From positions 46,792 through 110,791 of the forward strand of contig JAUHXU010000004.1 in the NCBI GenBank assembly GCA_030426805.1: a DNA stretch of 64,000 nt, written 5' to 3'. Positions 3,135 through 56,356 of the stretch are shown in pieces. A model generated the notes under the pieces. The model saw only the letters and a program-made list of their open reading frames with translations. It did not search any database and was not told the origin of the DNA. Within the stretch, counting starts at the first letter, position 1. Each line of letters begins with the position of its first letter. The stretch is from a bacterium (GTDB lineage: Bacteria > Planctomycetota > JAFGQW01). Position numbers and translations under genes: made by a program.

Positions 3135-3280
3135 CGATCCCGCGCTGACACGCGGTGTCGGAATCCGCGACACCGTTCCGAGATTCGTACGGTGCACGGC
3201 CGCGGCGCACTGCGGGACGGGCGCACGCAACCGCAATCACTGCCGGGGGAAAGGACGTCCTTTCTCGGAGGCGGTCGGAA

Positions 3281-3296
3281 TGGCACACCATTTGTA
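3281..3296 (+). promoter_or_regulatory. candidate sigma-54 (-24/-12) promoter TGGCACaccatTTGT upstream of the second bEBP gene
   Basis: TGGCAC-N5-TTGT has consensus -24 and correct spacing. The -12 is GT rather than the near-invariant GC. It lies ~90 bp upstream of the ATG at 3387, in the only intergenic gap between the two bEBP genes. Confidence 0.3.
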
Positions 3297-3386
3297 AAAA
3301 CATTCGCGGCGCGAGACACGCGCACACATCGACGCAGGGACAGGAGCCGCCGGGGGGCCGGCGTGAATCGAACAGGGGACATCAGG

Positions 3387-10168: not shown

Positions 10169-11883
10169 TCTTCCGCGCGCCCGAGGCGCTGGCCATGCTC
10201 GCCCTCGTCGTTCCGGTCGTCCTCCTCTACGTCGTGCGGGCGCGCCGTCGTGCGATGCAGGACCCGTTTCAGTTTCTGTGGGTCGGCCTGGCCCGCGAGC
10301 GACCGCGCTGGGGCCGGTTGCACCGTTGGCTGGAACTCGCACTCGTGACGATCGCGCTCGCGGCGATGGTCGTCGGGCTCGCTCGACCGGTCACGCCGAC
10401 GTCCGAGGCGCCGCCGCGCGTGCGGATCGTCGCGATCGCCGAGCCGAGCGCGGATGCGCTCGATCGTGCACGGGCGCTCGTCGCCGCGCTCGGTCCGGGC
10501 GAGACGGCGGCCGTCGTCGTCTCCTCGATCGACGGCGCTCGGGTCGCGTTGCCTCCGACGGGGGCGCCGGTGGCTCGGGACGCGTTCGACGTCGACCCGA
10601 CCGCGCCGCGGGATCGTGCCGCGGTCGCGGGGTCGGCCGCGAGGATCGCCGACGCGTTCGCGGGCGCGGAGGTGCATTGGCTCGACACCGGCGTCGAGGC
10701 GCTCTCGTTGCCCCGCGGTTGGCGAGGGCACGCGGTCGCACCGCGCGGGCTGCGCCTGGCGATCGAGGACGTGCAGCGCGCGGCCGACGGTCGGGTCTCG
10801 GCGCGCCTCGTCAACCGTGGCGCCGATCGCTGGCGCGGCCCGTTCCGCGCGACGCTCGGTGACCGGACGCTCGCCGAGGAACTCGTCGAACTCGACCCGA
10901 ACGCCGAGCGGTCGATCGCGTTCGCGGTCGACCCGATGGCCCGTGGGATCGTGCGGCTCGCACTGGCCGACATCGATGCGGTGCTCGCGTTGCCGAATGC
11001 GCGACCGGCGCGGATCGCGGTCGTCGCGCGCGGGGGGGCCGCGTCCTACGTCGGCCGGCTGCTCGCGTGTTTCGACCCGGTCGTCGATCCCGACGGAACC
11101 GTGCTGATCGCCCCGGATCGCGTCGACCGCGTCACGCGGGACGCGTTCGATTTCGCGCTGGTGCTGGGCCCCGCGCCGGCGACCGATCTTCCGGTGCCGG
11201 CGATCTACTTCGGCGCGCCGAATCCCCTCGTCTCGATCGACGCCGACGGCGACACGGGACCGATCCGCGTCACCGACGCCGCGCGGGATCACGCGCTGCT
11301 CGCCGCGGTCGACCTCGGGACCGTCGGGGCCCACCGCAGCGTCGCGTGTCGGGCGGCTGCCGGCGTCGCGGTGCTCGCGCGCGCCGAAGGACGGCCGGTC
11401 CTGTTTCACCGCCCGCCGGGCGCCGCGCCGGAAGCGCTCGCGTTCTCGTTTCGGCTACGTGACTCGAACCTGCTGTTCGAGCCGGCCCTCGTCGTGCTGA
11501 TCGCGAATGCGATCGAGCGGTGGGGGCCGACGGTCGTGGGCGGGGTCGCGGACGCACCGCTCTCGCTGCCGGTCGGCGCGTCGGTGCGCATCGCGCGGCG
11601 CGGCGACGACGGGCCGATCTGGTCCGGTCTCGAGGGCGACGGCTACCCGTTCCGGCCGCGCCGTGCCGGGCGCTTCGACGTGTCACTCGCGGATCGGGCG
11701 CTCGATGCGTGGGTCGCCCCGCGGTCGGGTGTCGCGGACGCGTCGACCGCCTGGGAGCGCCCTGCGGACCTCGCCGCGCCCCGGCCGCGGGACGGATGGC
11801 ACGAGCGAGCGCTCTGGCTCGCGTGGCTCGCCCTCGCGCTGCTGTGCCTCGAATGGGTGCTGTTCCACCGCGGCATCCTCTGA
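10165..11883 (+). CDS. BatA-like membrane protein (aerotolerance-regulator N-terminal domain)
   Basis: N-terminal MLALVVPVVLLYVVRARRR matches the BatA_N signature. C-terminal TM LWLAWLALALLCLEWVLF. GTGA overlap with DUF58 stop. Confidence 0.55.
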   Translation: MIFRAPEALAMLALVVPVVLLYVVRARRRAMQDPFQFLWVGLARERPRWGRLHRWLELALVTIALAAMVVGLARPVTPTSEAPPRVRIVAIAEPSADALDRARALVAALGPGETAAVVVSSIDGARVALPPTGAPVARDAFDVDPTAPRDRAAVAGSAARIADAFAGAEVHWLDTGVEALSLPRGWRGHAVAPRGLRLAIEDVQRAADGRVSARLVNRGADRWRGPFRATLGDRTLAEELVELDPNAERSIAFAVDPMARGIVRLALADIDAVLALPNARPARIAVVARGGAASYVGRLLACFDPVVDPDGTVLIAPDRVDRVTRDAFDFALVLGPAPATDLPVPAIYFGAPNPLVSIDADGDTGPIRVTDAARDHALLAAVDLGTVGAHRSVACRAAAGVAVLARAEGRPVLFHRPPGAAPEALAFSFRLRDSNLLFEPALVVLIANAIERWGPTVVGGVADAPLSLPVGASVRIARRGDDGPIWSGLEGDGYPFRPRRAGRFDVSLADRALDAWVAPRSGVADASTAWERPADLAAPRPRDGWHERALWLAWLALALLCLEWVLFHRGIL

Positions 11884-15037: not shown

Positions 15038-17095
15038 ATGGCTCGTACCGTTGGACCGGCTTGGCTCGCCGCGACCGCGCTCCTGATCGCCGCGTCCGGA
15101 ACCACGCAAGACGATCGACCCGATCCGAAACCGGATCCGCGTGCGCTCGAGGAGTTCGACGCGAACGGCGACGGCAAGCTCGATGCGAGCGAGCGACGTC
15201 GGATGCGGTGGCGCGAACGGTTCGGTCGACGCGGCGGTGACGGCCGCCGCGGGCAGGGCCGGGGGCCCGGCGGCCCGCGCGCGACGAAGACCGCGGTCGC
15301 CGAGCGCTTCGACGCCGACGGCAACGGCTGGCTCGACCGCGCCGAACGCGACAAGGCGCGAGCCTGGGTGGCCGAGAACGTTCGCCGACGTGGTCCCGGT
15401 GGCCCCGGTGGTCGCGGTCCCGGTGGCGGGGGCCCCGGCGGGCGGGAGGAGGTCTCCGACGAGCCGCCGATCGAGCCCGAGCGGCTCGCGCCGGACGGCG
15501 TCACCGCCTACCGCGATCGTGGTCTCTACGAACCGACCGTCGTCCGCACGCTCTTTCTCGACTTCGCGCACGACGACTGGGCGGACGAGCTCACCGCGTT
15601 CTACCGCACCGACGTCGAGGTGCCGGCGACGCTGACGATCGACGGCGAGCGCTTCGAGCGCGTCGGCGTCCGCTTTCGCGGCAACTCGTCGTTCTTCACG
15701 GTGGCCGCCGACCGCAAGCGATCGCTCAACGTGTCGGTCGACTTCACGCATCCGGGGCGAGGGTTGCACGGCCACCGCACGCTGAACTTGCTCAATGCGC
15801 ACACCGACCCGTCGTTCCTGCGGAGCTTCCTCTTCGCGCGCGTCGCATCGGACTACGTGCCGGCTCTGCAGGCGAACTTCGTCAAGGTCGTGATCAACGG
15901 CAAGAGCCACGGCATCCACGTCAACGTCGAGCAGTTCAACAAGGACTTCCTCGCGCGGGCGTACGGCACACGCAAGGGTGTCCGCTGGAAGGTCCCGCCG
16001 AACTTCGGCGGCGACGGCGGGTTGCGCTGGCTCGGTGAGGATCTCGCACCCTACCGCGCCGCGTACGCGCTGAAGACCGGAAGCGCGGGCGACGACGCAT
16101 GGCAGCGGCTCGTCGCGTTGTGCCGGATGCTCCACGAAGCGTCGGCCGAGGCACTCGAGCGTGAGTTGCCGTCGATCCTCGCGGTCGACGAAGCGCTGTG
16201 GGCGCTTGCGATCGACAACGTCCTGATGGACGCCGACGGCTACCACAGCCGCGCGAGCGACTACAACCTCTACCTCGACCCGGACGGCCGCTTCCACGTG
16301 ATCGCCCACGACAACAACGAGACGTTTCGCCTGCGCGCGGACGGCCCGGGTGGTCCGCGCGGTCGGCGCCGGGCGCCCGCGGGGGACGCACCGGAGCCCG
16401 ACCTCGCACCGGACATGACGCCACGCGAGCGCCTGCGTGCCCGACTGCGCGCACGCGGGGTCGGCGGGAGCGGCGGGGCCGGCTGGTCGCCGCTCGAGCA
16501 CGCCGACACCGACGAACGGCCGTTGATCCGCCGCTTGCTCGCGGTGCCCGCGTGGCGTGCGCGCTACCTGCACCACGTGAAGACGATCGCCGAGCGGTCG
16601 CTCGACTGGGCGTGGCTCGAACCGATCGCACGGGACGCGCACGACCGGATCGCCGACGACGTCGCGCGGGATCCACGCCGGCTCTACTCGCTCGCGGCGT
16701 TTCGCACGAGCCTCGACGGGACGTCGGGCGGCCGCACGCCGTCGATCGAGCACTTCGCGTCCCGGCGCCGCGCGTTTCTGCTCGGTCACGCGTCGCTCGC
16801 CGGGCCGTGGCCGACGATCGAGCGAGTCGCCGTGGACGGCGGTGCAGACGGGCGTGTCGCGTTCACGGCTCGCGTCGATGGCGAGCGCGCGATCGCGTCC
16901 GTGCGCCTGTGGGTGCGCGCGACCGCGCGAGCCCCGTTCGAGCGCGTCGCGATGACGCGAGCGGACGGTGTCTGGCGCGCCGCCGTCGCGCACGATCGCG
17001 TGCGCGACTACTACGTCGAGGCGATCGACGAGGGCGGTCGCGCGGCATACGCACCGCGACTCGCCGACGCGGCGCCGTCGACGCTCCCGGAGTAG
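15038..17095 (+). CDS. CotH-like (atypical kinase fold) secreted protein with two EF-hand-like Ca-binding motifs and Gly/Pro-rich linker
   Basis: Signal peptide MARTVGPAWLAATALLIAASG. DANGDGKLDASE and DADGNGWLDRAE fit DxDxDG loops. The CotH-type core reads AVDEALWALAIDNVLMDADGYHSRASDYNLYLDPDGRFHVIAHDNNETF. RBS GAGGAGG upstream. Confidence 0.6.
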   Translation: MARTVGPAWLAATALLIAASGTTQDDRPDPKPDPRALEEFDANGDGKLDASERRRMRWRERFGRRGGDGRRGQGRGPGGPRATKTAVAERFDADGNGWLDRAERDKARAWVAENVRRRGPGGPGGRGPGGGGPGGREEVSDEPPIEPERLAPDGVTAYRDRGLYEPTVVRTLFLDFAHDDWADELTAFYRTDVEVPATLTIDGERFERVGVRFRGNSSFFTVAADRKRSLNVSVDFTHPGRGLHGHRTLNLLNAHTDPSFLRSFLFARVASDYVPALQANFVKVVINGKSHGIHVNVEQFNKDFLARAYGTRKGVRWKVPPNFGGDGGLRWLGEDLAPYRAAYALKTGSAGDDAWQRLVALCRMLHEASAEALERELPSILAVDEALWALAIDNVLMDADGYHSRASDYNLYLDPDGRFHVIAHDNNETFRLRADGPGGPRGRRRAPAGDAPEPDLAPDMTPRERLRARLRARGVGGSGGAGWSPLEHADTDERPLIRRLLAVPAWRARYLHHVKTIAERSLDWAWLEPIARDAHDRIADDVARDPRRLYSLAAFRTSLDGTSGGRTPSIEHFASRRRAFLLGHASLAGPWPTIERVAVDGGADGRVAFTARVDGERAIASVRLWVRATARAPFERVAMTRADGVWRAAVAHDRVRDYYVEAIDEGGRAAYAPRLADAAPSTLPE

Positions 17096-17101
17096 GACGC
17101 C

Positions 17102-18304
17102 CTACACGCGGCCGAGCGCGTCGCGCAGCGCGGCTGCGAGCCACGCGATGTGCTCCGGTCGGTGGTCCGCGCGTACGGTCCAGCGCACGAGTTCGCCGCG
17201 GTCGGCCGCCGGGTAGACGAAGGGCGCGAGGAACACGCCGTGTGCGCGGCCGCACGCGTCGACCGCTTCGGCGCGCGGCGCGTCGATCGCGAAGATCGGG
17301 ACCGGCGAACCGCCGGTCCCGATGCCGACCCGCGAGCACGCGGCGTGCACGCGCATCACGTTCGTCCGCAGCCGCTCGACGCGGTCGGGTTCGTCGACGA
17401 CGATCGCGAGTGCCGTGCGGGCCGCGACCGCGAGTGCCGGCGCGAGCGCGGTGCTCGCGCGGTAGGCGTGGCTGTGGTCGCGCACCGCATCGCACAGCGC
17501 ACGGTCACCGGCGACGTAGCCGCCGTGCGCGCCGAGCGCCTTGCTGTAGACGCCGGTGCGGCAGGTCCGTACCGGGTCGATGCCCGCGTGCTCGAACACG
17601 CCGCGCCCCTCCGGGCCGATCGTGCCGATCGCGTGCGCCTCGTCGACGACGAGGATGCCGTCGTCGCCGACCGCATCGAGCAGGTCCGCGACCGGTGCGA
17701 TCGCGCCGTCGACCGCGAACACGCCGTCGGTGATCAGCCCCGCCCGCCCGTCCCGGGCTCGCGCGAGGCGGCGCGCGTCGTCCGCGTCGCGATGGCGGAA
17801 GTGCTCGACCGGCTTGCGCGACTGCCGGAGCGCGACGGCGATGCTCGGGTGCGCGTTCGCGTCGCACAACCAGTGGTCGACCCGGTCGTCGAGCACTTCC
17901 ACCGCGGCGAGGTTCGCGAGGAAGCCGGCGGGCAGGCTCAGGCACGCCTCGACGCCGAGGAACGCCGCCGTGTCGCGCTCGAGCGCGACGTGCGGCGCGA
18001 GCCGGCCGGTCGTGACCGGCGATGCGCTCGCACTCGTTCCAAACGCGGCGAGCGCGTCGCGTGCGGCGTCGACGACGCGCGAGTCCCCGGCCAACCCGAG
18101 GTAGTTCGTCCCCGTGAACGCGACGAGTTCGCTGCCGTCGACGAGGGTGGTGGGGCCGGCCGGCACGGTCAGCGCCCGAGTCGCTGGCGCCAGGCCCAGC
18201 GGTAGAGGTTGCGGCTGTCGACGTAGCGCGCCGCCGACGATTGTGCACCGAGCACGACGAGCAACAGCCGTTTGCCGTCGCGCTCCGACATCGACGCGAG
18301 GCAC
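17102..18304 (-). CDS. alpha-oxoamine synthase family PLP enzyme (8-amino-7-oxononanoate synthase BioF-like)
   Basis: N-terminus VGARRQTAVARRAR...LVDGSELVAFTGTNYLGL parallels the BioF region ending ...NFSSNDYLGL. PLP-lysine region reads GVYSKALGAHGGY. The only in-frame start is GTG at 18304, which overlaps the upstream gene's 3' end by ~136 bp. Confidence 0.6.
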   Translation of the reverse strand: MPRVDVGARRQTAVARRARCTIVGGALRRQPQPLPLGLAPATRALTVPAGPTTLVDGSELVAFTGTNYLGLAGDSRVVDAARDALAAFGTSASASPVTTGRLAPHVALERDTAAFLGVEACLSLPAGFLANLAAVEVLDDRVDHWLCDANAHPSIAVALRQSRKPVEHFRHRDADDARRLARARDGRAGLITDGVFAVDGAIAPVADLLDAVGDDGILVVDEAHAIGTIGPEGRGVFEHAGIDPVRTCRTGVYSKALGAHGGYVAGDRALCDAVRDHSHAYRASTALAPALAVAARTALAIVVDEPDRVERLRTNVMRVHAACSRVGIGTGGSPVPIFAIDAPRAEAVDACGRAHGVFLAPFVYPAADRGELVRWTVRADHRPEHIAWLAAALRDALGRV

Positions 18305-26878: not shown

Positions 26879-29675
26879 CGCCTGCGTCGCGCTGCTTCTC
26901 GGCGCCGCGATGTGCGGCGCGGTGTCCGCTCAACCGACCGATCCGGTCGCGCAGCGACTCGGCACAATGACGCTCGACGAGAAGGTCGGGCAGTTGCTCG
27001 CGATCGCGTTCACCCCGCGCGACGGGGCGACGGCTGCCGGCTTCGACAAGCACGTCCGCGACGTCCGCGAACTCGGGATCGGCGGCGTCACGTTCTTCCG
27101 CGGATCGGTCGGGCCCGTGCGGGAGTGCCTCGCCGCGCTTTCCGCAGCCGCGAAGACGCCGCTCGCGGTCATGTCGGACGTCGAGTTCGGGCTGCCGATG
27201 CGCGTCAACGAGGGGACGCGGATGCCGCTCAACATGGCGCAGGGGGCGACCGGCGATCCGTCGCTCGCCTACCAGGCGGGACGGGTGACGGCGATCGAGG
27301 CGCGGGCGGTCGGCATCCACGTCGCGTTCGCGCCCGTCGTCGATGTGAACAACAACCCCGGCAACATCATCATCAACACGCGTTCCTACGGCGAGGATCC
27401 GGCCGCGGTCGGGCGCTTCGGGAGCGCGTTCATCCGCGGGCTGCAGGAGCACGGTGTGTTCGCGACCGCGAAGCACTACCCCGGTCACGGCGACACGTCG
27501 GTCGACTCGCACCTGTCGCTGCCGACGATCGACGCGTCTCGCGAGCGGCTGGAACGCGTCGAACTGGCGCCGTTCGCCGCGGCCGTCAAGGCGGGGGTGC
27601 GGTGCGTGATGGTCGGGCACATCACGTTCAGTCGCGTCCCGGAGATGAAGGGGCGGCCGGCGAGCCTCGACCCGCACTTCGTGGATCGGGTCTTGCGCGG
27701 GTCGATGGGCTTCGACGGCCTCGTGATCACGGACGCGATGAACATGGGCGGCATCACGGAGCACTACGGGCACGGCGAGGCCGCGGTGATGGCGATCGAG
27801 GCCGGCGTGGACGTCGTGCTGATGCCGGGTGACGTGCGTGCCGCGCACGCCGCGCTCGTCGCCGCGGTGAAGACCGGCCGACTCGCGAAGGCGCGGCTCG
27901 ACGCGTCGGTCGAGCGCATCCTGCGATTGAAGGCCGATGCGGGCCTGCTCGGGGGCGGCACGCGGCCGGCGCCGGGCGCGGTCGAGACCGTCCTGCGCGC
28001 GCCGGATCACGTCGCGGTCGCCGAGCGGATCGCCGATCGGGCGGTCACGCTCGTCGCCGACCGGCGCGGTGTCGTTCCGCTCGCCGCGGAGCGACTGCGC
28101 GACGTCGTCGTCGTCACGGTGACCGACGAGCGCCGCGGTCGAACCCGAGGCGGTGCGTTTCTCGCCGAAGTGCGTCGGCGGATCCCGGACGCGGCGGCGG
28201 AGCGGATCGACCCGACGACGTCCGCGAAGGCAGCGGCGGCGATCGTCTCGCGCGCGAAGAAGGCGGACGCGGTCGTCGTCGCGATCACCGTGAAATGGCG
28301 CGACCGCAAGGGGAGCATCGCGCTGCCGGACGAGACCGTCGAGCGACTCGCGCGCCTCCTTCGGATCAAGACGCCGCTCGTCGTCGTCGCGTTCGGGTCG
28401 CCGTACGTGCTCGGACAACTCCCCGCTGCACCGGCGGCGCTGTGCGTCTACGACCCGTCGACGCTCGCGGCCGGCGCGGCGGCGCGGGCGCTCTTCGGCG
28501 AGTGCGCGATCGGCGGGCGGCTGCCGGTCTCGATTCCCGGACGTTTCGCGCGCGGCGTCGGGCTCGACCGAGCCGCCCGTACGATGACACTCGAGCGGGC
28601 GCTCGACGACAAGCGGTTCCGGGCGGCGTGGTCGGTGCTCGAGGAGCGGATCGAGAAGAAGGTCTTCCCCGGCGCCCAGGTCGCGATCGTGCGCGATGGC
28701 GCGCTCGTCGCGAGCCGCGGCTTCGGCCGACTGACCTACGACGACAACGCGTCGAAGGTGACGACGGAGACGGTCTACGACGTCGCGTCGGTGACGAAGG
28801 TCGCTGCGACGACGACGGTCGCGATGGTGCTCGCCGATCGCGGGGCGCTCGACCTCGACAAGCCGGTCGTCGACTACCTGCCGTCGTTCAGCGGCGGCGG
28901 CAAGGAGGGCGTCACGGTGCGCCACCTGCTGACGCACACGTCGGGCTTGCCGGCGTGGGCGAAGCTGTGGAGCCACGGGGATCGCGCAGCGGCGTTGGCC
29001 TACATCGACGGCGTGACGCTCGCGTCACGGCCGGGGGCGAAGGCGAAGTACTCCGACCTCGGGATGATCACGCTCGGGCGCGTGCTCGAACGCGTCGGCA
29101 AGGCACCGCTCGACGAACTCGCGCGCGACCTCGTGTTTGCACCGCTCGGGATGACGCATACGACGTTCCGGCCGCCGGCCGCGTGGCGACCGCGGATCGC
29201 GCCGACCGAGGAGGGGGGCGACCTCGATCGCGGGCGCATTCTCGGCGACGTGCACGACGAGAACGCCCATTTCCTCGGCGGCGTCGCCGGGCACGCGGGA
29301 GTCTTCTCGACGGCCGAGGACCTCGCGGTCCTCGCGCAGGCCTACCTCGACGGCGGCATGCACCGCCATCATCGACTGTTCCGACCGGCGACCGTCGAGG
29401 CGTGGACGTCGCGACAGAACCTCGTCGTAGGCAGCAGTCGGGCCCTCGGTTGGGACACGCCGAGCGCGCGCGGCTCGCTCGCCGGCGACCGCTTCTCGAA
29501 GCAGAGCTTCGGCCACACCGGCTTCACCGGGACGTCGATCTGGGTCGACCGGGCGCGTCGCATCGCGATCGTCTTGCTGACGAACCGCGTGCACCCGACC
29601 CGCACCCGTGGCGGCATGCGGGAAGCGCGCCGGGCGTTTTACAACGCGGCGATGAAGGCGGCGATCGCCCGGTGA
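26859..29675 (+). CDS. fusion: GH3 beta-N-acetylhexosaminidase (NagZ-like, two-domain) + C-terminal beta-lactamase-family serine hydrolase
   Basis: Signal peptide present. GH3 motifs include KHYPGHGDTSVDSHL and the catalytic region VITDAMNMGGI. The C-terminal ~340 aa has SVTK (SxxK) and HLLTHTSGLP, matching class-C/PBP4*-like beta-lactamases. Confidence 0.8.
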   Translation: MRSIFRSACVALLLGAAMCGAVSAQPTDPVAQRLGTMTLDEKVGQLLAIAFTPRDGATAAGFDKHVRDVRELGIGGVTFFRGSVGPVRECLAALSAAAKTPLAVMSDVEFGLPMRVNEGTRMPLNMAQGATGDPSLAYQAGRVTAIEARAVGIHVAFAPVVDVNNNPGNIIINTRSYGEDPAAVGRFGSAFIRGLQEHGVFATAKHYPGHGDTSVDSHLSLPTIDASRERLERVELAPFAAAVKAGVRCVMVGHITFSRVPEMKGRPASLDPHFVDRVLRGSMGFDGLVITDAMNMGGITEHYGHGEAAVMAIEAGVDVVLMPGDVRAAHAALVAAVKTGRLAKARLDASVERILRLKADAGLLGGGTRPAPGAVETVLRAPDHVAVAERIADRAVTLVADRRGVVPLAAERLRDVVVVTVTDERRGRTRGGAFLAEVRRRIPDAAAERIDPTTSAKAAAAIVSRAKKADAVVVAITVKWRDRKGSIALPDETVERLARLLRIKTPLVVVAFGSPYVLGQLPAAPAALCVYDPSTLAAGAAARALFGECAIGGRLPVSIPGRFARGVGLDRAARTMTLERALDDKRFRAAWSVLEERIEKKVFPGAQVAIVRDGALVASRGFGRLTYDDNASKVTTETVYDVASVTKVAATTTVAMVLADRGALDLDKPVVDYLPSFSGGGKEGVTVRHLLTHTSGLPAWAKLWSHGDRAAALAYIDGVTLASRPGAKAKYSDLGMITLGRVLERVGKAPLDELARDLVFAPLGMTHTTFRPPAAWRPRIAPTEEGGDLDRGRILGDVHDENAHFLGGVAGHAGVFSTAEDLAVLAQAYLDGGMHRHHRLFRPATVEAWTSRQNLVVGSSRALGWDTPSARGSLAGDRFSKQSFGHTGFTGTSIWVDRARRIAIVLLTNRVHPTRTRGGMREARRAFYNAAMKAAIAR

Positions 29676-32422
29676 ACGGCTTCACGACCCTCGACGCGGT
29701 GATCGTCGTCGTCTACGCGCTCGCGAGCGCGGCGGCCGGCGCGTGGATCGGCCGTCGACAGACGTCGACGACGGACTACTTCCTCGGCGGACGGAGCCTC
29801 CCGTGGCCGGCGGTTGCGTTCAGCGTCGTCGCGACCGAGACGAGCGTGCTGACGTTCATCGGCGTGCCGGCGGTCGCGTACGGCGGGAACTGCACGTTCC
29901 TCCAACTCGCGATCGGCTACGCGATCGGACGGGTCGTCGTCGCATTCGTGCTGCTGCCGCGCTACTTCGCCGGCGACATGGAGACGGCGTACGAGTTCCT
30001 CGGCCAGCGGTTCGGGCTCGCGACGCGGCGCACCGCGAGCATCACGTTCATGGGGACGCGGTTGCTCGCCGACGGCGTGCGGTTGTTCGCGACGTCGATC
30101 CCGTTGGCGGTGATTCTGCGCGAGAGCGGCTGGCTCGACGGCGCGACGCCGGCGGCGGCCGACGTCGGCGCGATCATCGCGATCGGCGTCCTGACGATCG
30201 CCTACACCTACGTCGGCGGGATCCGCTCGGTCGTCTGGATGGACGTCGTGCAGATGGTGATCTACGTCGGGGGCGCGTTGCTGGCGGTCGGGCTGATCGC
30301 CGCGCGGTTGCCGGACGGGTTCGCGTCGGTCGTCGCGGCCGCCGACGCGAGCGACAAGCTCCGCGTGTTCGACTTCGGTAGCGGCCTGTCGATCGGGGAG
30401 TTCCTGGCGAAGCCGTATACGTTCCTGATCGCGGTACTCGGCGGGGCGGTGTTCAGCGTCGCGTCGCACGGCACCGACCAGCTCATCGTGCAGCGGATTC
30501 TGACGTGCCGATCGACTCGCGCCGGACAGCTCGCGATGATCGCGAGCGGGGTCGCGGTATTCGTGCAGTTCGCGTTGTTCCTGTGGCTCGGCGCGATGCT
30601 GTTCGCGTTCTACGGCGGCGCGTCGCACGAGGCGCTGGGGCTCTCGAGGCCTGACGGCATCTTCCCGAAGTTCATCGTCACCGAGATGCCGACCGGCCTT
30701 TCGGGGCTCGTCGTCGCGGCGTTGTTCGCGGCCGCGATGAGCACGCTCTCGAGCAGCTTGTCGAGCTTGTCGAGCGCGACGGTGCTCGACATCTACCGTC
30801 CGTTGGCGAAGCGACCGCCGACCGACGCCGCATTGCTGCGATTGTCCCGGCTCGTGACGCTCGGTTGGGGCGTCGCACTCGTCGGGGTCGCCACCGCATT
30901 CATCGGAGGGACGGAGTCCGTGGTCCACATCGCTCTGACGATCGCCGCGTACACGTACGGCGCACTGCTCGGCGTCTTCCTGCTCGGGCTCGTCGTGCCG
31001 CGCGCGACGCAGCGCGACGCGATCGTCGGGTTTTTCGCCGCGCTCGTCGTGACGATCGTGCTGAAGGAGCAGTGGTCGATCGCCTGGCCGCTCTACACGG
31101 TGGCGGGCAGCGCGGTCGCGGTGCTCGTCGGCGGGGCGATGCGCACCGCGTGGCCGCGTGCGGCGGCGCTGGTCGCGCTCGGCGCGCTCGGCGTCGGATG
31201 CGCGGCGAACGAACCTTCGCCGGTGCGCCGGCCGACCCCGCCGCCGACTCCGGTGTCGCCGATCGTCGCGTGCGGCCTCGACGTGCTCGTCGCGGACGGC
31301 TTCGCGCCGCTCGTCGGCAAGCGCGTCGGCGTGATCACGAACCACACCGGTCGGACCCGCGACGGCCGTCACATCGCCGACGTGCTGCACGCGGCGCCGT
31401 CGGTCGAATTGGTCGCGCTGTTCGGGCCGGAGCACGGCGTTCGCGGCGCGGCGGCCGCCGGCGAGCGCGTCGCGTCGTCGACCGACCCGGCGACCGGGGT
31501 GCCGGCGTACAGCCTCTACGGCAAGACGAAGAAGCCGACCGCGGCGATGCTCGACGGCATCGACGTCCTCGTGTTCGACGTGCAGGACGTGGGCGCCCGC
31601 TTCTACACCTACATCTACACGATGGCCTACGCGATGGACGCGTGCGCCGAGCACGGCAAGGCGTTCGTCGTGCTCGACCGACCCAATCCGATCGGCGACG
31701 CGGTCGAGGGGCCGTTGCTCGACCCGGCGCACGCGAGCTTCGTCGGCCTCTTCGCGCTGCCGATTCGGCACGGGTTGACGGTCGGCGAGCTGGCGCGCCT
31801 GTTCGTCCGGCGGGGTTGGGTCGCGAAAGGGGCGTCGCTCGACCTGCACGTCGTCCCGGTCCGCGGCTGGTCGCCCGGAACCTGGTACGACGAGACGGGG
31901 CTCGAGTGGGTCGCGCCGTCGCCGAACATGCGGACGCTCGCGACGGCGACCGTCTACCCCGGCACGTGCCTCGTCGAGGGGACGAACCTGTCCGAGGGGC
32001 GCGGCACCGCGCGACCGTTCGAGTGGATCGGTGCCCCGTGGGTGGACGGTCCGCGACTCGCCCGCGATCTGAACGCGCTCGGCCTCCCCGGCGTTCGGTT
32101 CGATCCGATCGCGTTCACGCCCCAGCCGATGCCGTCCGCGCCGCGACCGAAGCACGGCGGCGCGCGCTGCGAGGGCGTCGCGGTCGTCGTGACCGATCGA
32201 CGCGCGTTTCACGCGGTTCGCTGCGGCGTCGCGCTCATCACGACGGTGGCCCGGAATCATCCCGACGCGTTCGGGTGGCGCCGATCGATCGAGCGGCTCT
32301 TCGGCTCCGATCGCCTTCGGCGGTGGGTCGCCGACGGAGCGCTCGACGACGCGTTCGCGACGATCGATCGCGAGACCGCCGCGGCACGCGACCTCGTCGA
32401 TTCGGTGCGGATGTATCGCTGA
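29672..32422 (+). CDS. single-ORF fusion: sodium:solute symporter (SSS family, 13 TM) + extra TM + DUF1343 (NamZ-type exo-beta-N-acetylmuramidase) domain
   Basis: SSS motifs ETSVLTFIGVPAVAYGG and SHGTDQLIVQRILT. A hydrophobic linker with a lipobox-like stretch reads MRTAWPRAAALVALGALGVGCAANE. The DUF1343 core reads SLYGKTKKPT..VFDVQDVGARFYTYIYTMAYAMD..VVLDRPNP..RHGLTVGELA..WVAPSPNM. No stop codon separates the two parts. GTGA overlap with the upstream gene. Confidence 0.75.
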   Translation: MNGFTTLDAVIVVVYALASAAAGAWIGRRQTSTTDYFLGGRSLPWPAVAFSVVATETSVLTFIGVPAVAYGGNCTFLQLAIGYAIGRVVVAFVLLPRYFAGDMETAYEFLGQRFGLATRRTASITFMGTRLLADGVRLFATSIPLAVILRESGWLDGATPAAADVGAIIAIGVLTIAYTYVGGIRSVVWMDVVQMVIYVGGALLAVGLIAARLPDGFASVVAAADASDKLRVFDFGSGLSIGEFLAKPYTFLIAVLGGAVFSVASHGTDQLIVQRILTCRSTRAGQLAMIASGVAVFVQFALFLWLGAMLFAFYGGASHEALGLSRPDGIFPKFIVTEMPTGLSGLVVAALFAAAMSTLSSSLSSLSSATVLDIYRPLAKRPPTDAALLRLSRLVTLGWGVALVGVATAFIGGTESVVHIALTIAAYTYGALLGVFLLGLVVPRATQRDAIVGFFAALVVTIVLKEQWSIAWPLYTVAGSAVAVLVGGAMRTAWPRAAALVALGALGVGCAANEPSPVRRPTPPPTPVSPIVACGLDVLVADGFAPLVGKRVGVITNHTGRTRDGRHIADVLHAAPSVELVALFGPEHGVRGAAAAGERVASSTDPATGVPAYSLYGKTKKPTAAMLDGIDVLVFDVQDVGARFYTYIYTMAYAMDACAEHGKAFVVLDRPNPIGDAVEGPLLDPAHASFVGLFALPIRHGLTVGELARLFVRRGWVAKGASLDLHVVPVRGWSPGTWYDETGLEWVAPSPNMRTLATATVYPGTCLVEGTNLSEGRGTARPFEWIGAPWVDGPRLARDLNALGLPGVRFDPIAFTPQPMPSAPRPKHGGARCEGVAVVVTDRRAFHAVRCGVALITTVARNHPDAFGWRRSIERLFGSDRLRRWVADGALDDAFATIDRETAAARDLVDSVRMYR

Positions 32423-32509
32423 TCGCCCGCCGGGGGAGCCGCCGCGGCTTCCATGGTAGACTGGCGGCGATGGCCCGGCCGGGCCCAGGGGTGACTTGAA
32501 GGAGTTTCG

Positions 32510-35467
32510 ATGTTCGATCGGTTTCGCGTACTCGTCGCGGTCCTGCTCCTGTCGACGGGGTCTTCGATCGCGACCGTCGCGCAAGGGCGAGCCCTGTTCG
32601 TGCGACACGGAAACCTCGTCCCGTCGTCGACCGCGTCGAACGACGCATCGTCGCTGATGCGCACGCTGCTCGCCGGGCCGAGCGGGAGCGAGCGACGGGC
32701 CGGGGTCACGACCGCGATCGCGCCCGGCACACGGCTGCTCGGGATCGCGACGGACGGCGGCCGCGTCGTCGTCGACGTGTCGGCGAGTTTCACGACGTCC
32801 GCGGACGCCGAACTGGCACTCGAGCAAATCGTGAAGTCGCTCGCGTCGCTCGGCTACGCCCAGTTCTCGGTCCGCACGCCGGATCCGGCGGCACCGAAAG
32901 CGTGGCTCGAAGTCGGCGCCGCGCCGCCGTCGACGACGCCGATCCTCGACTTGCCGCCGCCGCCGGTGCTGCCGAGCAAGGTCACCGGGGTCCTCACCGG
33001 CAAGACGATCGCGGTGTCGCCCGGCCACGGCTACTACTGGCACTCGTCGCTCGGCTGGACGACACAGCGCGGCAACATCGGCGGGCTGACCGAGGACATC
33101 CACACGAACGAGATCGCGATGGAGTGGGTGATCCCGTATCTCGAAAACGCCGGGGCGCGGGTGATCTCGTGCCGCGATCGCACGCGGAACACGAACGAGC
33201 ACATCGTCGACAACGACGGCGGCCCGGGCTACGTCGAGACCGGGAGCTGGGGACTCGGCGGCGGCGCCGGGTTCAACAGCGCGACCTACCGGTTCGCGAC
33301 GACGGCGGCGGCCGAGACGGCCCGTGCGACGTTCACGACGACCGTCGCCGCAGCCGGCGCCTACCCGGTGTGGATCGGTTACAAGGCGGGCACGAACCGC
33401 GCGACCGATGCGCGTGTTCTCGTCGAACACGCCGGTGGCACGTCGGAGGTGAAGATCGATCAGACCGCCGACGATCTGCGGCTTCGCTATCTCGGGACGT
33501 TCTGGTTCGATCCGGCGACGCCGGCGCGCGTGCACGTCTCGAACCAGTCGTCGCAGGTCGGTCGGGTCGTGATCGCCGATCACGTGCGCATCGGCGGCGG
33601 GCTCGGCTCGATCGCGCGGGGCGGCACGAGCAATCGCCCGCGCTGGCAGGAGGCGTCGCGCTACTGGACGCAGTTCGCGGGGGCGCCGTCGTCGGTCTGG
33701 AACTCGGTCAGCAGTGGCGAGGACAACTCCGACGACGTCACCGCCCGACCACGCTACGCGGAGTGGCGCGGGGCGAACGCGTTCGTGTCGATTCACACGA
33801 ATGCCGGCGGCGGCACCGGCACGTCGTCGTTCATCCACAATACGTCGCCGTCGGCCGGGTCGAGCGCGCTTCAGAACGCCGTGCACACGCAGCTGATCAG
33901 CGACATTCGCTCGCTCTACGACCCGGCGTGGACGGACCGCGGGAAGAAGACCGCGAACTTCGGCGAAGTGCGTGTCCTGAGCACGATGCCGGGCGTGCTG
34001 CTCGAGCTCGCGTTCCACGACGACCCGAACAAGAAGGACCACGTCTTCCTGCACGACCCGAACTTTCGGCAGGTGTGCGGACGGGCGATCGCCCGAGGCG
34101 TGATCCGTTACTTCAACCAGACCGCACCGTTTCCGCCGGAGCCACCGACGCGCGTCCGCGTGACCCAGGACGGCAACGGCGGGCTGCGCGTCAGTTGGGA
34201 CGCGGCGGCCGCGGCGAGCGGCTACGTCGTCGAAGAGAGCACCGACGGACTGAGCTTCTCGGGCGTCGGCATGACCGTGACCGGCACGACCTGGACGACG
34301 ACGCCGCTGCCGCACGGAGCGCTGCGCGGCTACCGCGTGCGCGCGACCAACGCCTCCGGTCAATCGCTGCCGACCGAGGTCGTCGTCGGCCGAACCGGGC
34401 CGACCGGCCGCGCCGACGTGCTGCTCGTCCAGGGATTCGACCGCCTCGAGAAGAACGTCAAGGAGCCCGACAACCGGCGCAACTACCTCGCTCGGTTCCT
34501 CGACGCGATCGGCCGCATCGCGGACTACTCGGTCGCGATCGATTCCGCGTCGAACGAGGCGCTCGCGACGAATCGCGTGCCGATCCAGAACTACCGCGCG
34601 GTCGTGTTCGCGCTGGGAGAGGAGTCCACGGCCGACGAGACGTTCTCGCTCACCGAGCAGAATCTCGTGCGCGCGTATCTGCAGATCGGGGGGCGCGTGT
34701 TCGTCAGCGGCGCGGAGATCGCGTGGGACCTCGACCAGCAGGGGAGCGCGACCGACCGCGCGTTCTACCGGACGTGGCTCGCGGCGAGCTACGTCAACGA
34801 CGACGCAAACGTCTATCGCGCCGGCCCCGCAGCCGGGTCCGCGTTCGCCGGGCTGCCCGACTTGACGTTCGACAACGGCACGGCGGGGACCTACGACGTC
34901 AACTACCCCGACTCGCTCGCGCCGAGCGGCACCGGGGCGAAGAACTCGCTGCTCTACCGCGGAACGTCGTTCGTCGCGGCGACCGAGCAGGTCAACGGCA
35001 ACGCGCGTGTGCTGAACTGGGGCTTTCCGTTCGAGACGATCACCGATCGCGCACTCGCCGGCCGCTACATGGACCGCGCGATCGACTTCCTGCTGCAACC
35101 GCGCGCGCTCGATGTCGTGCGTACCGCGACGCCGGGCGGCACGGTGCCGATCACGATCGAGCGACCGGCTCACGCGAGCGCCCAGTACGTGCTCGCCGCG
35201 AGCTTCTCGACCCAGCCCGGCATTCCGGTCGGCGGCGGTCGGACGGTGCCGCTCGTGCTCGACCCGCTCTTCGCGACGTCGTTCGGGTCCAGCGCCGGCG
35301 TCTTCCAGGGCTTCGTCGGTACCCTCGACGGATCCGGCCGTGCGAACGCACAGGTCAACTTGCCGAACCTGCCGATCCAGGGCCTGCGCTTCTACGTGAG
35401 CGGCGTCGTGTTGACCGGGCCGACGATCGTCGACGTCCTGCCGTGGCGGCGCGTCACGGTGCAGTGA
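32510..35467 (+). CDS. large secreted multi-domain protein: GerMN-like domain + N-acetylmuramoyl-L-alanine amidase (Amidase_3) + FN3-like + C-terminal beta-rich domain
   Basis: Signal peptide present. GerMN-like segment reads LLAGPSGSERRAGVTTAIAPGTRLLGIATDGGRVVVDVS. Amidase_3 motifs are VSPGHGY, VSIHTNAGGG and ELAFHDD. An FN3-like stretch follows (RVSWDAAAAASGYVVEES). Confidence 0.7.
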   Translation: MFDRFRVLVAVLLLSTGSSIATVAQGRALFVRHGNLVPSSTASNDASSLMRTLLAGPSGSERRAGVTTAIAPGTRLLGIATDGGRVVVDVSASFTTSADAELALEQIVKSLASLGYAQFSVRTPDPAAPKAWLEVGAAPPSTTPILDLPPPPVLPSKVTGVLTGKTIAVSPGHGYYWHSSLGWTTQRGNIGGLTEDIHTNEIAMEWVIPYLENAGARVISCRDRTRNTNEHIVDNDGGPGYVETGSWGLGGGAGFNSATYRFATTAAAETARATFTTTVAAAGAYPVWIGYKAGTNRATDARVLVEHAGGTSEVKIDQTADDLRLRYLGTFWFDPATPARVHVSNQSSQVGRVVIADHVRIGGGLGSIARGGTSNRPRWQEASRYWTQFAGAPSSVWNSVSSGEDNSDDVTARPRYAEWRGANAFVSIHTNAGGGTGTSSFIHNTSPSAGSSALQNAVHTQLISDIRSLYDPAWTDRGKKTANFGEVRVLSTMPGVLLELAFHDDPNKKDHVFLHDPNFRQVCGRAIARGVIRYFNQTAPFPPEPPTRVRVTQDGNGGLRVSWDAAAAASGYVVEESTDGLSFSGVGMTVTGTTWTTTPLPHGALRGYRVRATNASGQSLPTEVVVGRTGPTGRADVLLVQGFDRLEKNVKEPDNRRNYLARFLDAIGRIADYSVAIDSASNEALATNRVPIQNYRAVVFALGEESTADETFSLTEQNLVRAYLQIGGRVFVSGAEIAWDLDQQGSATDRAFYRTWLAASYVNDDANVYRAGPAAGSAFAGLPDLTFDNGTAGTYDVNYPDSLAPSGTGAKNSLLYRGTSFVAATEQVNGNARVLNWGFPFETITDRALAGRYMDRAIDFLLQPRALDVVRTATPGGTVPITIERPAHASAQYVLAASFSTQPGIPVGGGRTVPLVLDPLFATSFGSSAGVFQGFVGTLDGSGRANAQVNLPNLPIQGLRFYVSGVVLTGPTIVDVLPWRRVTVQ

Positions 35468-35530
35468 GCCAGGGGGCAGTGAGCCAGGGGGCAACGAGCC
35501 ACGCGCGGCGCGCGTGGCTCGCGCGAACGC

Positions 35531-56278: not shown

Positions 56279-56356
56279 TGGTACCCCCAAGGGGATTCGA
56301 ACCCCTGTCTGATGGCTGAGAACCACCTGTCCTAGGCCGGGCTAGACGATGAGGGC
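56279..56356 (-). tRNA. tRNA-Glu (anticodon CUC)
   Basis: Manual fold gives acceptor GCCCUCA/UGGGGGU, D-arm GUCU..GGAC, anticodon stem GGUGG/CCAUC with loop UUCUCAG (CUC), T-arm AGGGG-UUCGAAU-CCCCU, discriminator A and encoded CCA. Closely parallels E. coli tRNA-Glu. Confidence 0.75.

What the first reader, a model, noticed from the sequence alone, without database searches (positions are those of the whole stretch)
29672..32422. In-frame fusion of a Na+/solute symporter with a NamZ-type exo-beta-N-acetylmuramidase domain
The SSS-family transporter (13 TM, GTDQ..QR motif) runs without a stop codon through an extra hydrophobic segment that resembles a lipoprotein signal peptide (ALVALGALGVGCAANE). 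It then continues into a complete DUF1343/NamZ domain. A 14th TM would place NamZ in the periplasm, so the MurNAc-releasing hydrolase would sit on the transporter that could import its product. I am not aware of such a transporter-hydrolase fusion being described. The internal lipobox suggests an ancestral two-gene arrangement (transporter plus NamZ lipoprotein) that lost the intervening stop. It could alternatively be a sequencing frameshift or indel.
Basis: seen in the sequence. Interest (0 to 1): 0.8.

Follow-up and report, generated by a model that had tools for sequence, protein, structure and literature searches.

The report
Muramic-acid transporter fused to its hydrolase
One real, conserved gene joins a sodium-driven sugar importer to the cell-wall enzyme NamZ, which releases N-acetylmuramic acid outside the cytoplasm; the design is unstudied but already common in sequence databases.

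Summary
Window 29672-32422 (+) is one 916-codon gene. It encodes a 13-helix Na+/solute symporter (SSS), a short signal-peptide-like hydrophobic segment with a lipobox (LGVGC), a Pro-rich linker and a complete NamZ (GH171) exo-muramidase.

It is not a sequencing artefact. The identical protein occurs in three independent assemblies. An 85%-identical homologue keeps the frame across a 12-nt linker indel, and both halves show purifying selection.

The architecture is also not rare. Of the 120 best database hits, 69 are fusions: 4 SSS-NamZ and 65 SSS-beta-lactamase-fold-NamZ.

Unfused relatives carry SSS and NamZ (or beta-lactamase-NamZ) as adjacent or overlapping genes. The second gene starts with a signal peptide exactly where the fusion has its 14th segment.

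The neighbours point to peptidoglycan and MurNAc salvage: a MurK-like kinase and a NagZ-AmiE-like fusion here, and MurQ and AnmK beside homologues.

Most likely NamZ works at the outer face of the inner membrane, beside a MurT-like MurNAc importer. Whether it stays tethered or is cut off as a lipoprotein is open.

No paper in the searched library describes this fusion. I rate it a new variant of a known kind, of moderate interest.

The parts
25907..26878 (+). BcrAD_BadFG/ASKHA sugar kinase, of the MurK/NagK type. It overlaps the next gene by 20 nt.
   Evidence: Called gene with Pfam PF01869 (L001 6236-7207, offset 19671). 37% identical to the kinase that precedes the SSS-NamZ gene pair in L003. 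MurK belongs to the ASKHA superfamily (PMC10465942).
26859..29675 (+). Exported fusion of a GH3 N-acetylglucosaminidase (NagZ-like) with a beta-lactamase-fold domain (AmiE/PBP4B-like). Its signal peptide is MRSIFRSACVALLLGAAMCGAVSA|Q.
   Evidence: Pfam Glyco_hydro_3 (293 bits), Glyco_hydro_3_C and Beta-lactamase (239 bits). NCBIfam hits to PBP4B and NagZ lie below the curated cut-offs. N-terminus.
29672..32422 (+). The fusion gene: 916 codons, GTG start overlapping the upstream stop (GTGA).
29672..31150 (+). SSS-family transporter core, residues 1-493, 13 transmembrane helices. The Na2 site (S357, T358), the Na3 site (D191, S360, S361) and the gating Arg275 are retained.
   Evidence: Pfam SSF. 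TIGR00813 at 182.5 bits, just under its 184-bit cut-off. phmmer to SiaT 5nv9, E 4e-47, residues 6-488 against 8-474. Residue roles from PMC5931594. AlphaFold2 helices. Foldseek TM 0.87 to 5nva.
31139..31141 (+). Internal in-frame ATG (Met490). From here the sequence reads as a complete lipoprotein signal peptide, MRTAWPRAAALVALGALGVGC. The Met is not conserved: it is CTG (Leu) in the 85% homologue.
31160..31207 (+). Fourteenth hydrophobic segment, residues 497-512 (AAALVALGALGVGCAA). It derives from a signal peptide and is preceded by R491 and R496.
   Evidence: Mean Kyte-Doolittle hydropathy 2.13 over 15 residues; uncharged run of 16 residues. It falls below a 19-residue transmembrane threshold. 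AlphaFold2 gives only a short helix, 495-506, at low confidence. Equivalent segments occur in all 69 fusions and in none of the 51 stand-alone SSS proteins.
31187..31201 (+). Lipobox-like motif LGVGC (Cys510). It is kept as LGGGC in the 85% homologue although the surrounding linker has diverged.
31208..31261 (+). Pro-rich disordered linker, residues 513-530.
   Evidence: pLDDT below 50 for residues 504-528. Fast-evolving: 8 synonymous against 19 non-synonymous codon changes, plus an in-frame indel.
31256..32419 (+). NamZ (GH171, formerly DUF1343) exo-beta-N-acetylmuramidase domain, residues 529-916. The PEHG motif (E587) and EGRGT motif (R777) are invariant among fusions.
   Evidence: Pfam NamZ_N and NamZ_C. 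phmmer to 4k05 (E 3e-77) and 4jja (E 1.5e-62). Foldseek TM 0.92 to 4k05. Invariant columns. Putative catalytic Glu92 and Arg279 of B. subtilis NamZ from PMC8054146.
32510..35467 (+). Exported protein with Germane, Golvesin_C and Amidase_3 (MurNAc-L-Ala amidase) domains. It lies 88 nt downstream on the same strand.
   Evidence: Pfam. Called gene. N-terminal signal-like sequence.
20173..25871 (.). Rest of the amino-sugar and cell-wall salvage island: Glucosamine_iso (20173-20868, -), GHL10 (20865-22034, -), Amidase_3 (22065-23231, +), DUF5009 (23233-24579, -) and NAGPA+Golvesin_C (24678-25871, +).
   Evidence: Called genes with Pfam families in L001. Frames confirmed by codon-position GC.

Best explanation
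This is a genuine, selected gene fusion inside a peptidoglycan-salvage operon.

The N-terminal 493 residues form an intact 13-helix Na+-coupled SSS transporter. It belongs to a subfamily whose genes repeatedly sit beside MurNAc-recycling genes. I infer that it imports free N-acetylmuramic acid (possibly also anhydro-MurNAc), as T. forsythia MurT does.

Helix 13 ends in the cytoplasm. The next hydrophobic segment (residues 497-512) is the former signal peptide of a downstream NamZ gene. It re-crosses the membrane and exports the NamZ domain on a roughly 20-residue Pro-rich tether.

Outside the cytoplasm, the exported NagZ-AmiE-like fusion and the Amidase_3 proteins remove GlcNAc and stem peptides from cell-wall fragments. 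NamZ then clips MurNAc from the non-reducing end, right beside the transporter that takes it up with Na+. The MurK-like kinase encoded two genes upstream phosphorylates it.

The fusion guarantees one-to-one production and co-localisation of the hydrolase and the importer.

Shown: the fusion is real and under selection; both domains are intact; the extra segment is universal in fusions; the genes are linked. Inferred: the sidedness of NamZ, MurNAc as the substrate, local hand-over of the product, and persistence of the covalent link.
For: Reality and selection:
- Identical protein in three assemblies.
- The 85% homologue is in frame across a 12-nt indel, with more synonymous than non-synonymous changes in both halves.
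- 69 of the top 120 hits are fusions.

Transporter intact:
- Homologous to SiaT over residues 6-488, with both Na+ sites and Arg275 conserved.
- Model TM-score 0.87 to SiaT.

NamZ intact:
- 287 and 145 bits to the two NamZ models; TM-score 0.92 to 4k05.
- E587 lies just after beta-strand 2 of the model, where the putative catalytic Glu92 of B. subtilis NamZ lies.

Sidedness:
- SiaT has its N-terminus outside and C-terminus inside.
- Every fusion adds exactly one hydrophobic segment, preceded by a Lys/Arg-rich loop; no stand-alone SSS does.
- Unfused NamZ or beta-lactamase-NamZ genes start with signal peptides at the same place.
- Characterised NamZ enzymes carry predicted signal peptides, and exo-muramidase activity is found in B. 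subtilis culture medium.

Functional link:
- L003 has kinase, SSS, NamZ in a row; L004 has AnmK, SSS, MurQ-like; L005 has a SIS-domain (MurQ-like) gene next to the SSS gene.
- 32 of 65 SSS-centred loci have at least one of NamZ, kinase, GH3, beta-lactamase-fold or MurQ within about 6 kb.
- The marine fusion P0083 sits in the operon kinase, alanine racemase, GH3-beta-lactamase, SSS-NamZ.
- The known MurNAc importer MurT is in the sodium symporter superfamily and is encoded with MurK and MurQ.
Against: - No transport or enzyme assay exists for any member of this subfamily.
- No MurQ or AnmK gene lies in the 64-kb window.
- Half of the SSS-homologue loci (mainly Balneolaceae, Ignavibacteria and Bacteroidota, at 45-51% identity) have no cell-wall genes nearby. 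Subfamily-wide specificity is therefore not established.
- The SiaT carboxylate-binding Arg135 is not conserved by position. The query has Ala133 there, although the invariant R130 and R137 lie on the same helix.
- The 14th segment has only 16 uncharged residues and AlphaFold2 models it poorly. It looks more like a cleavable signal peptide than a stable anchor, so the covalent tether may not persist.
Confidence: 0.7

Rival explanations
1. Polyprotein model. The ORF is translated as one chain, but the 14th segment acts as an internal signal peptide and is then cut. In this lineage the enzymes would be Lgt and Lsp, acting at LGVG|C510; in the other fusions, signal peptidase I. The final products would be a separate transporter and a NamZ that is lipid-anchored or free in the periplasm. 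The fusion would then provide co-translation and one-to-one stoichiometry, not a lasting tether.
For: - The hydrophobic core is short (16 uncharged residues here), which is typical of signal peptides.
- Counted from Met490, the sequence is a textbook lipoprotein signal peptide.
- LGxGC is conserved in the 85% homologue although 19 of 37 aligned linker codons changed the amino acid.
- Many triple fusions have only about 10 strongly hydrophobic residues, followed by Pro or Gly and an Ala-X-Ala-like site, for example IAVLLIVLLVPQLKA|QD and VAIVLIVLLGARPLVHA|Q.
- The homologous unfused genes use real signal peptides at this position.
- From my own knowledge, not held in the library: Bradyrhizobium japonicum fbcH encodes cytochromes b and c1 as one precursor that is split at an internal signal peptide.
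Against: - I know of no natural case of Lgt/Lsp processing at an internal lipobox about 500 residues into a polytopic protein.
- P0083 has a robust hydrophobic segment with no obvious cleavage motif (IIFLTSLVILYFIFSF|RNE).
- No signal-peptide predictor could be run here.
Confidence: 0.35
2. Sequencing or assembly artefact. A frameshift, indel or lost stop codon joined two separate genes (SSS and a NamZ lipoprotein) in this assembly only.
For: Unfused relatives have exactly this two-gene layout with overlapping stop and start codons. An in-frame ATG with a complete signal peptide is present at 31139.
Against: - The identical 916-aa protein occurs in an NCBI genome and in two independent read-set assemblies.
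- An 85% homologue from another run is also fused. It differs at many nucleotides and carries a 12-nt in-frame indel.
- Fusions at 37-46% identity are abundant.
- The coding frame signal is continuous across the junction.
Confidence: 0.02
3. Cytoplasmic NamZ. The hydrophobic segment does not span the membrane. The transporter would import a MurNAc-terminated disaccharide (MurNAc-GlcNAc) and the attached NamZ would cleave it inside the cell.
For: The segment is short and AlphaFold2 gives it low confidence. NamZ cleaves MurNAc-GlcNAc.
Against: - All unfused counterparts and all characterised NamZ enzymes carry signal peptides.
- The segment follows a Lys/Arg loop, as the positive-inside rule predicts.
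- Fusions such as P0003 and P0083 have strongly hydrophobic segments of 16-19 residues.
- The partner enzymes in the operon are exported.
Confidence: 0.04
4. The SSS domain carries a different substrate, or serves only as a membrane anchor or sensor. Candidates are GlcNAc, anhydro-MurNAc, D-lactate or a peptide. SSS domains act as sensor modules in kinases such as CbrA.
For: - No assay exists.
- AnmK sits beside the L004 homologue, which hints at anhydro-MurNAc.
- Half of the homologue loci lack cell-wall neighbours.
- The SSS fusions described so far are to sensor kinases (PMC7918813).
Against: - The Na2 and Na3 sites and the gating Arg are conserved, and the domain is under purifying selection, so it is probably an active transporter.
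- A non-PTS MurNAc route needs a kinase, and a MurK-type kinase is co-operonic.
- The fused or adjacent enzyme releases MurNAc specifically.
Confidence: 0.2

Closest known systems
Bacillus subtilis NamZ (YbbC, GH171) and its operon murQ-murR-murP-amiE-nagZ-namZ (PMC8054146)
   Same: The exported enzyme set is the same: NagZ, a beta-lactamase-fold domain that I equate with AmiE (AmiE's fold is from my own knowledge), and NamZ. They dismantle cell-wall fragments into GlcNAc, MurNAc and peptides, and uptake of MurNAc follows. The NamZ domain here is a full-length homologue with the conserved Glu and Arg motifs.
   Different: In Bacillus all are separate proteins and uptake is by the PTS transporter MurP. 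Here uptake would be by an SSS symporter plus a separate kinase. NamZ is fused to the transporter, and NagZ is fused to the AmiE-like domain.
Tannerella forsythia MurT-MurK-MurQ with periplasmic NamZ1/NamZ2 (PMC5790795; bioRxiv 10.1101/2021.12.02.470905)
   Same: The logic is the same: a non-PTS MurNAc importer of the sodium symporter superfamily, a MurK-type kinase, and a periplasmic NamZ that supplies MurNAc.
   Different: MurT and NamZ are separate proteins encoded at different loci. Orthology of this SSS domain to MurT is untested. No murQ gene lies in the window.
SiaT, the Na+/sialic acid symporter of Proteus mirabilis (PDB 5NV9/5NVA; PMC5931594)
   Same: It is the closest solved structure to the transporter half (E 4e-47, TM-score 0.87). 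Both have the 13-helix LeuT fold and both Na+ sites. Its substrate is also an acidic N-acetylated sugar.
   Different: Identity is only 29%. Substrate-contact residues differ (Thr58 to Glu56, Arg135 to Ala133). SiaT has no 14th segment and no fused enzyme.
SSS domains fused to sensor kinases (CbrA, MxtR/CrbS; PMC7918813)
   Same: These are the multidomain SSS proteins described in the literature: a 13-helix SSS module with extra domains at the C-terminus.
   Different: In those proteins the added domains are cytoplasmic signalling modules joined directly after helix 13. Here an extra membrane pass exports a hydrolase.
Bradyrhizobium japonicum FbcH, a cytochrome b-c1 precursor (own knowledge; the 1989 Cell paper appears in a reference list seen)
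   Same: A polytopic membrane protein is followed in the same ORF by an internal signal peptide that exports a periplasmic domain.
   Different: FbcH is known to be cleaved into two proteins and belongs to respiration. Cleavage here is unknown.
Substrate-binding domains fused to ABC-transporter membrane domains (OpuA- and GlnPQ-type; own knowledge)
   Same: An extracytoplasmic substrate-handling module is covalently attached to its importer.
   Different: Those modules bind the substrate. Here the module is an enzyme that generates it.

Membership tests
Solute:sodium symporter family (SSS, TC 2.A.21, Pfam PF00474) | Sequence match to the family model above the curated threshold | tested here: met
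   PF00474 at 111.3 bits against a cut-off of 22.8, residues 36-454. TIGR00813 scored 182.5 bits against a cut-off of 184, just below.
Solute:sodium symporter family (SSS, TC 2.A.21, Pfam PF00474) | LeuT-fold core with 13-15 transmembrane helices and the N-terminus outside | tested here: met
   The AlphaFold2 model (pLDDT 90.8) has 13 membrane helices up to residue 493. TM-score 0.87 to SiaT. The sidedness is taken from SiaT and is not measured.
Solute:sodium symporter family (SSS, TC 2.A.21, Pfam PF00474) | Na2 site (Ser/Thr pair on helix 8 of the core); optionally the Na3 site | tested here: met
   In the alignment to SiaT, S342/S343 correspond to S357/T358, D182 to D191, S345/S346 to S360/S361, and R260 to R275.
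Solute:sodium symporter family (SSS, TC 2.A.21, Pfam PF00474) | Na+-coupled solute uptake | not testable with these tools
   Needs an uptake assay.
MurT-type MurNAc importer | Member of the sodium symporter superfamily | tested here: met
   MurT classification from PMC5790795.
MurT-type MurNAc importer | Encoded together with a MurK-type kinase and the MurQ etherase | tested here: inconclusive
   The kinase is co-operonic here and in L003 and L087. MurQ is next to homologues in L004, L005, L006, L045, L057 and others. It is absent from this 64-kb window.
MurT-type MurNAc importer | Sequence orthology to Tf_MurT (Tanf_08375) | not tested
MurT-type MurNAc importer | MurNAc uptake, or rescue of an E. 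coli murP mutant | not testable with these tools
   Experimental.
NamZ / GH171 exo-beta-N-acetylmuramidase | Both NamZ_N and NamZ_C domains above threshold | tested here: met
   287.4 and 145.2 bits against cut-offs of 26.9 and 25.
NamZ / GH171 exo-beta-N-acetylmuramidase | Two-domain fold of BF0371/BF0379 | tested here: met
   Foldseek TM-score 0.92 to 4k05 and 0.89 to 4jja. phmmer E 3e-77 to 4k05.
NamZ / GH171 exo-beta-N-acetylmuramidase | Putative catalytic Glu at the end of beta-strand 2, and a conserved Arg of the C-terminal domain (Glu92 and Arg279 in B. subtilis NamZ) | tested here: met
   E587 (PEHG) follows strand 579-585 of the model. R777 (EGRGT) lies in the C-terminal domain. Both are invariant in 22 fusions. 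The match to B. subtilis numbering is inferred, because that sequence was not aligned.
NamZ / GH171 exo-beta-N-acetylmuramidase | Extracytoplasmic location through a signal sequence | tested here: inconclusive
   A signal-like segment precedes the domain, but it is internal. No predictor or experiment was available.
NamZ / GH171 exo-beta-N-acetylmuramidase | Hydrolysis of pNP-MurNAc or MurNAc-GlcNAc | not testable with these tools
   Experimental.
Bacterial lipoprotein (Lgt/Lsp substrate) | Lipobox before an invariant Cys, after an uncharged hydrophobic region and a positively charged N-terminal region | tested here: met
   R491 and R496, then AAALVALGA, then L-G-V-G-C510. Position -3 is Gly, not the classical Leu. 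The motif is conserved as LGGGC in L086.
Bacterial lipoprotein (Lgt/Lsp substrate) | Signal peptide at the N-terminus of the translated protein | tested here: not met
   The Cys is residue 510 of the ORF. It would be N-terminal only if translation started at Met490, and that Met is not conserved (CTG in L086).

The most novel reading that the evidence does not exclude
The 14th segment is a working internal signal peptide or lipobox. One ORF would then yield, by Lgt/Lsp cleavage (signal peptidase I in the acidobacterial triple fusions), a polytopic transporter and a separate lipid-anchored exo-muramidase. That would be a natural bacterial transporter-lipoprotein polyprotein. Alternatively the link persists, giving a covalently tethered enzyme-on-importer that hands MurNAc straight to its symporter. 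Either outcome would be a way of organising cell-wall salvage that has not been described experimentally. It would also act as a Rosetta-stone link, assigning MurNAc transport to a large, phylogenetically broad SSS subfamily.
Probability: 0.35. Interest if true: 0.6.

Novelty: new variant of a known kind. Interest (0 to 1): 0.45.

Why it matters
- The fusions and the conserved adjacency tie a large, unannotated SSS subfamily to MurNAc recycling. The subfamily occurs in Acidobacteriota, Planctomycetota, Gemmatimonadota, Marinimicrobia/Fidelibacterota, some Gammaproteobacteria and this deep-branching lineage. MurT-type uptake has so far been described only for Tannerella forsythia and reported as conserved within the Bacteroidetes phylum. 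NamZ was reported mainly from Bacteroidetes (PMC8054146).
- They offer a natural test of whether an extracytoplasmic hydrolase gains from being attached to, or made together with, the importer of its product.
- The signal-peptide-like joint raises a testable question about processing of internal signal peptides and lipoboxes in bacteria.
- In practice, RefSeq labels these 900-1450-residue proteins only as 'sodium:solute symporter family transporter' (for example WP_263378497.1), which hides two enzymatic domains.

Tried and rejected
- Sequencing artefact: rejected.
- Separate NamZ translated from the internal ATG at 31139 as the main product: unlikely, because the Met is CTG in the 85% homologue and only a weak G-rich stretch precedes it.
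- A 19-residue Kyte-Doolittle window did not flag the 14th segment. A 15-residue window did, in all fusions.
- AlphaFold2 did not settle the 14th segment or the domain arrangement. pLDDT falls below 50 for residues 504-528, pTM is 0.62, and the tool returns no coordinates or predicted aligned error.
- MurQ and AnmK were sought in the window by tblastn and not found.
- Organism identity: the best 80 of about 600 genome contigs matches had no self-hit. GatB's nearest non-self relatives are only 53-59% identical, with mixed names (Omnitrophota, Planctomycetota and others). The taxon stays unresolved.
- Tf_MurT orthology: the Ruscitto 2016 paper and review are not held, so no sequence or accession was available.
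- Independent origins of the fusions: an NJ tree of SSS domains places P0001/P0002 among stand-alone transporters and apart from P0003, P0083 and the triple-fusion clade. The tree has no support values, and P0083 shares the same operon layout. I therefore claim only repeated fusion or fission, not a number of events.
- Rfam scan of the window: only two tRNAs.
- Literature searches for NamZ, DUF1343 plus symporter, and GH171 found no description of the fusion.

Full report
**1. What is in the sequence**

Window 29672-32422 (+) translates to 916 codons with a single terminal stop. The GTG start overlaps the TGA of the upstream gene as GTGA.

The DNA is about 70% GC, so long open frames are common. 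The same frame stays open back to 28295, and a 1951-aa antisense ORF covers the region. ORF length is therefore not evidence of a gene.

The evidence that it is one gene:
- Pfam finds SSF at residues 36-454, NamZ_N at 552-756 and NamZ_C at 761-898, all in one frame and far above threshold.
- Codon-position GC has the signature of a real gene (GC1 0.68, GC2 0.52, GC3 0.93). The frame with the highest GC3 does not change across the junction.

**2. It is not an artefact**

- The identical protein is on a 698,920-bp NCBI contig and in Logan assemblies of two different runs.
- A homologue at 85% identity, from a third run, has the same gene pair: GH3-beta-lactamase followed by SSS-NamZ.
- In a codon alignment with that homologue the junction stays in frame across a 12-nt indel.
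- Both halves show more synonymous than non-synonymous codon changes (SSS 104 vs 54; NamZ 101 vs 60). The linker evolves fast (8 vs 19).

**3. The architecture is widespread but undescribed**

- Among the 120 best hits in the 5.8-billion-protein collection, 4 are SSS-NamZ (P0001, P0002, P0003, P0083), 65 are SSS-X-NamZ and 51 are stand-alone SSS proteins of about 503-552 residues.
- In the seven fusions scanned, the order in the large proteins is SSF, then Beta-lactamase, then NamZ. One is RefSeq WP_263378497.1 of Granulicella paludicola, labelled only 'sodium:solute symporter family transporter'.
- Within the searchable library, the NamZ papers, the SSS review and searches for 'DUF1343 + symporter' and 'GH171' contain no description of such a fusion.

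**4. Anatomy of the junction**

- The transporter half aligns with SiaT (PDB 5NV9) over residues 6-488. SiaT has 13 helices, with the N-terminus in the periplasm and the C-terminus in the cytoplasm.
- The AlphaFold2 model (pLDDT 90.8) has the same 13 helices up to residue 493. A short low-confidence helix follows at 495-506, then a disordered stretch at 504-528.
- Foldseek matches the two halves to SiaT (TM 0.87) and to BF0371/4k05 (TM 0.92). No solved structure spans both.
- After helix 13 the sequence reads M490-RTAWPR-AAALVALGALGVG-C510-AANEPSPVRRPTPPPTPVSP. That is a positively charged stretch, a 16-residue uncharged core, a lipobox-like LGVGC and a Pro-rich tether.
- In all 69 fusions there is one extra hydrophobic segment after helix 13. 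It is preceded by 1-6 Lys/Arg in the 63 where the script's anchor was placed correctly. In the other six the anchor fell on helix 13 itself, and the sequence printed after it shows a Lys/Arg-rich loop followed by a further hydrophobic stretch. The 51 stand-alone transporters end 6-20 hydrophilic residues after helix 13.

**5. Origin**

In species-representative genomes, none of the best 80 loci is fused in frame, but many carry the same genes side by side.
- SSS is followed directly by NamZ in L003, L035, L038 and L044.
- SSS is followed by a roughly 800-residue beta-lactamase-NamZ gene in Planctomycetota, Granulosicoccus and an Acidobacteriaceae MAG (L045, L057, L063, L066, L073, L076).
- In most of these loci the second gene's reading frame opens at or before the SSS stop (L038 is the exception, with a gap of about 170 nt), and in all of them it starts with a signal peptide. 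In L003 it is a lipoprotein signal peptide (MKKLLIISIVFVLAC).

An NJ tree of SSS domains places the window's lineage among stand-alone transporters (60-65% identity). It lies apart from the other fusions (37-46% identity). This suggests repeated fusion or fission. The tree is unsupported, and P0083 shares the operon layout, so I do not count events.

**6. Function from context**

The window operon reads: NAGPA/Golvesin_C protein, BcrAD_BadFG kinase, GH3-beta-lactamase fusion, SSS-NamZ, Germane/Golvesin_C/Amidase_3 protein. Upstream lie genes for Glucosamine_iso, GHL10, Amidase_3 and DUF5009.

Contexts of homologues:
- L003 has kinase, SSS, NamZ in a row. L004 has AnmK, SSS, MurQ-like. L005 has a SIS-domain (MurQ-like) gene next to the SSS gene.
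- 32 of 65 SSS-centred loci have at least one such neighbour.
- The other half, mostly FCB-group genomes, have unrelated neighbours.

This mirrors the B. subtilis set of AmiE, NagZ and NamZ, which yields MurNAc for uptake. [quoted passage not shown]

Both domains look functional:
- The transporter keeps the Na2 site, the Na3 site and the gating Arg.
- NamZ keeps the PEHG Glu and the EGRGT Arg.

**7. Mechanism and open point**

I conclude that NamZ acts at the outer face of the cytoplasmic membrane, next to a MurT-like importer of its product, with the two made in a one-to-one ratio.

Whether the covalent link persists is not settled. Four observations make cleavage into a lipoprotein a serious alternative, which I put at about 0.35:
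- The hydrophobic core is short.
- The lipobox is conserved within a fast-evolving linker.
- Many triple fusions have sites that look like signal peptidase I sites.
- The segment is homologous to genuine signal peptides.

A cytoplasmic NamZ and a non-transporting SSS domain are both unlikely.

**8. Limits**

- No MurQ or AnmK gene lies in the window.
- Orthology to MurT is untested.
- The organism is unresolved. GatB is at most 59% identical to anything but itself.
- No topology or signal-peptide predictor and no experiment was available.

**9. Verdict**

It is a new variant of known parts rather than a new kind of system. It is already abundant in databases, but it is unannotated and unstudied. 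Interest is moderate.

Noticed in passing
window 26859-29675 (+): The upstream gene is itself a fusion: an exported GH3 NagZ-like glycosidase joined to a beta-lactamase-fold (AmiE/PBP4B-like) domain. The same GH3-beta-lactamase gene lies directly upstream of the SSS gene in many Gemmatimonadota loci and in the marine P0083 operon.
   Followed up: partly
P0011-P0118 (for example P0117 = WP_263378497.1, Granulicella paludicola); L076: 65 of the top 120 hits are triple fusions of 1216-1459 residues. Seven fusions were scanned with Pfam: in the five triple fusions among them the order is SSS, beta-lactamase-fold, NamZ. The only one that carries a RefSeq name (P0117) is labelled as a plain symporter. 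Planctomycetota and Granulosicoccus carry the split form, SSS followed by a beta-lactamase-NamZ gene, with a MurQ-like gene divergently upstream.
   Followed up: partly
window 18169-35467: A roughly 17-kb cell-wall and amino-sugar island. It encodes a Peptidase_S11/PG_binding protein, NagB-like Glucosamine_iso, GHL10, two Amidase_3 proteins, DUF5009, and two proteins with a Golvesin_C domain (24678-25871 with NAGPA; 32510-35467 with Germane and Amidase_3). The role of the Golvesin_C domains is unknown.
   Followed up: no
window 29639-35494 (-) and 28295-29671 (+): A 1951-aa antisense ORF and a 459-codon upstream extension of the fusion frame are high-GC artefacts. Their codon-position GC is not that of a gene.
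   Followed up: yes
window 47928-49370 (-): The nearest non-self relatives of GatB are only 53-59% identical and carry mixed phylum names (Omnitrophota, Planctomycetota, Halothermothrix). The source organism appears to be a deep-branching, poorly sampled lineage.
   Followed up: partly
L029 5989-9179; also L023, L040, L050: In Bacteroidota, Ignavibacteria and Chlorobiaceae MAGs the SSS homologue lies among housekeeping genes with no cell-wall genes nearby. In L029 it is followed in tandem by a gene confirmed as a second, more distant SSS paralogue; the second matches in L023, L040 and L050 were not scanned. The substrate in that branch may differ.
   Followed up: partly
window 1797-4790, 9293-11883, 15203-17095, 56282-57264: Other content of the window: two sigma-54 activators in tandem, a DUF58/BatA aerotolerance-type pair, a CotH-kinase-domain protein, and two tRNA genes on the minus strand. 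The housekeeping genes guaB, guaA, gatA/gatB, recJ, purL and psd show that this is chromosomal DNA.
   Followed up: no
L005 5926-7992: In an Aminicenantes genome the gene immediately upstream of the SSS homologue encodes a 688-residue protein with a MurQ-type SIS domain. That is about twice the length of MurQ, so it may be another fusion in the same pathway.
   Followed up: no
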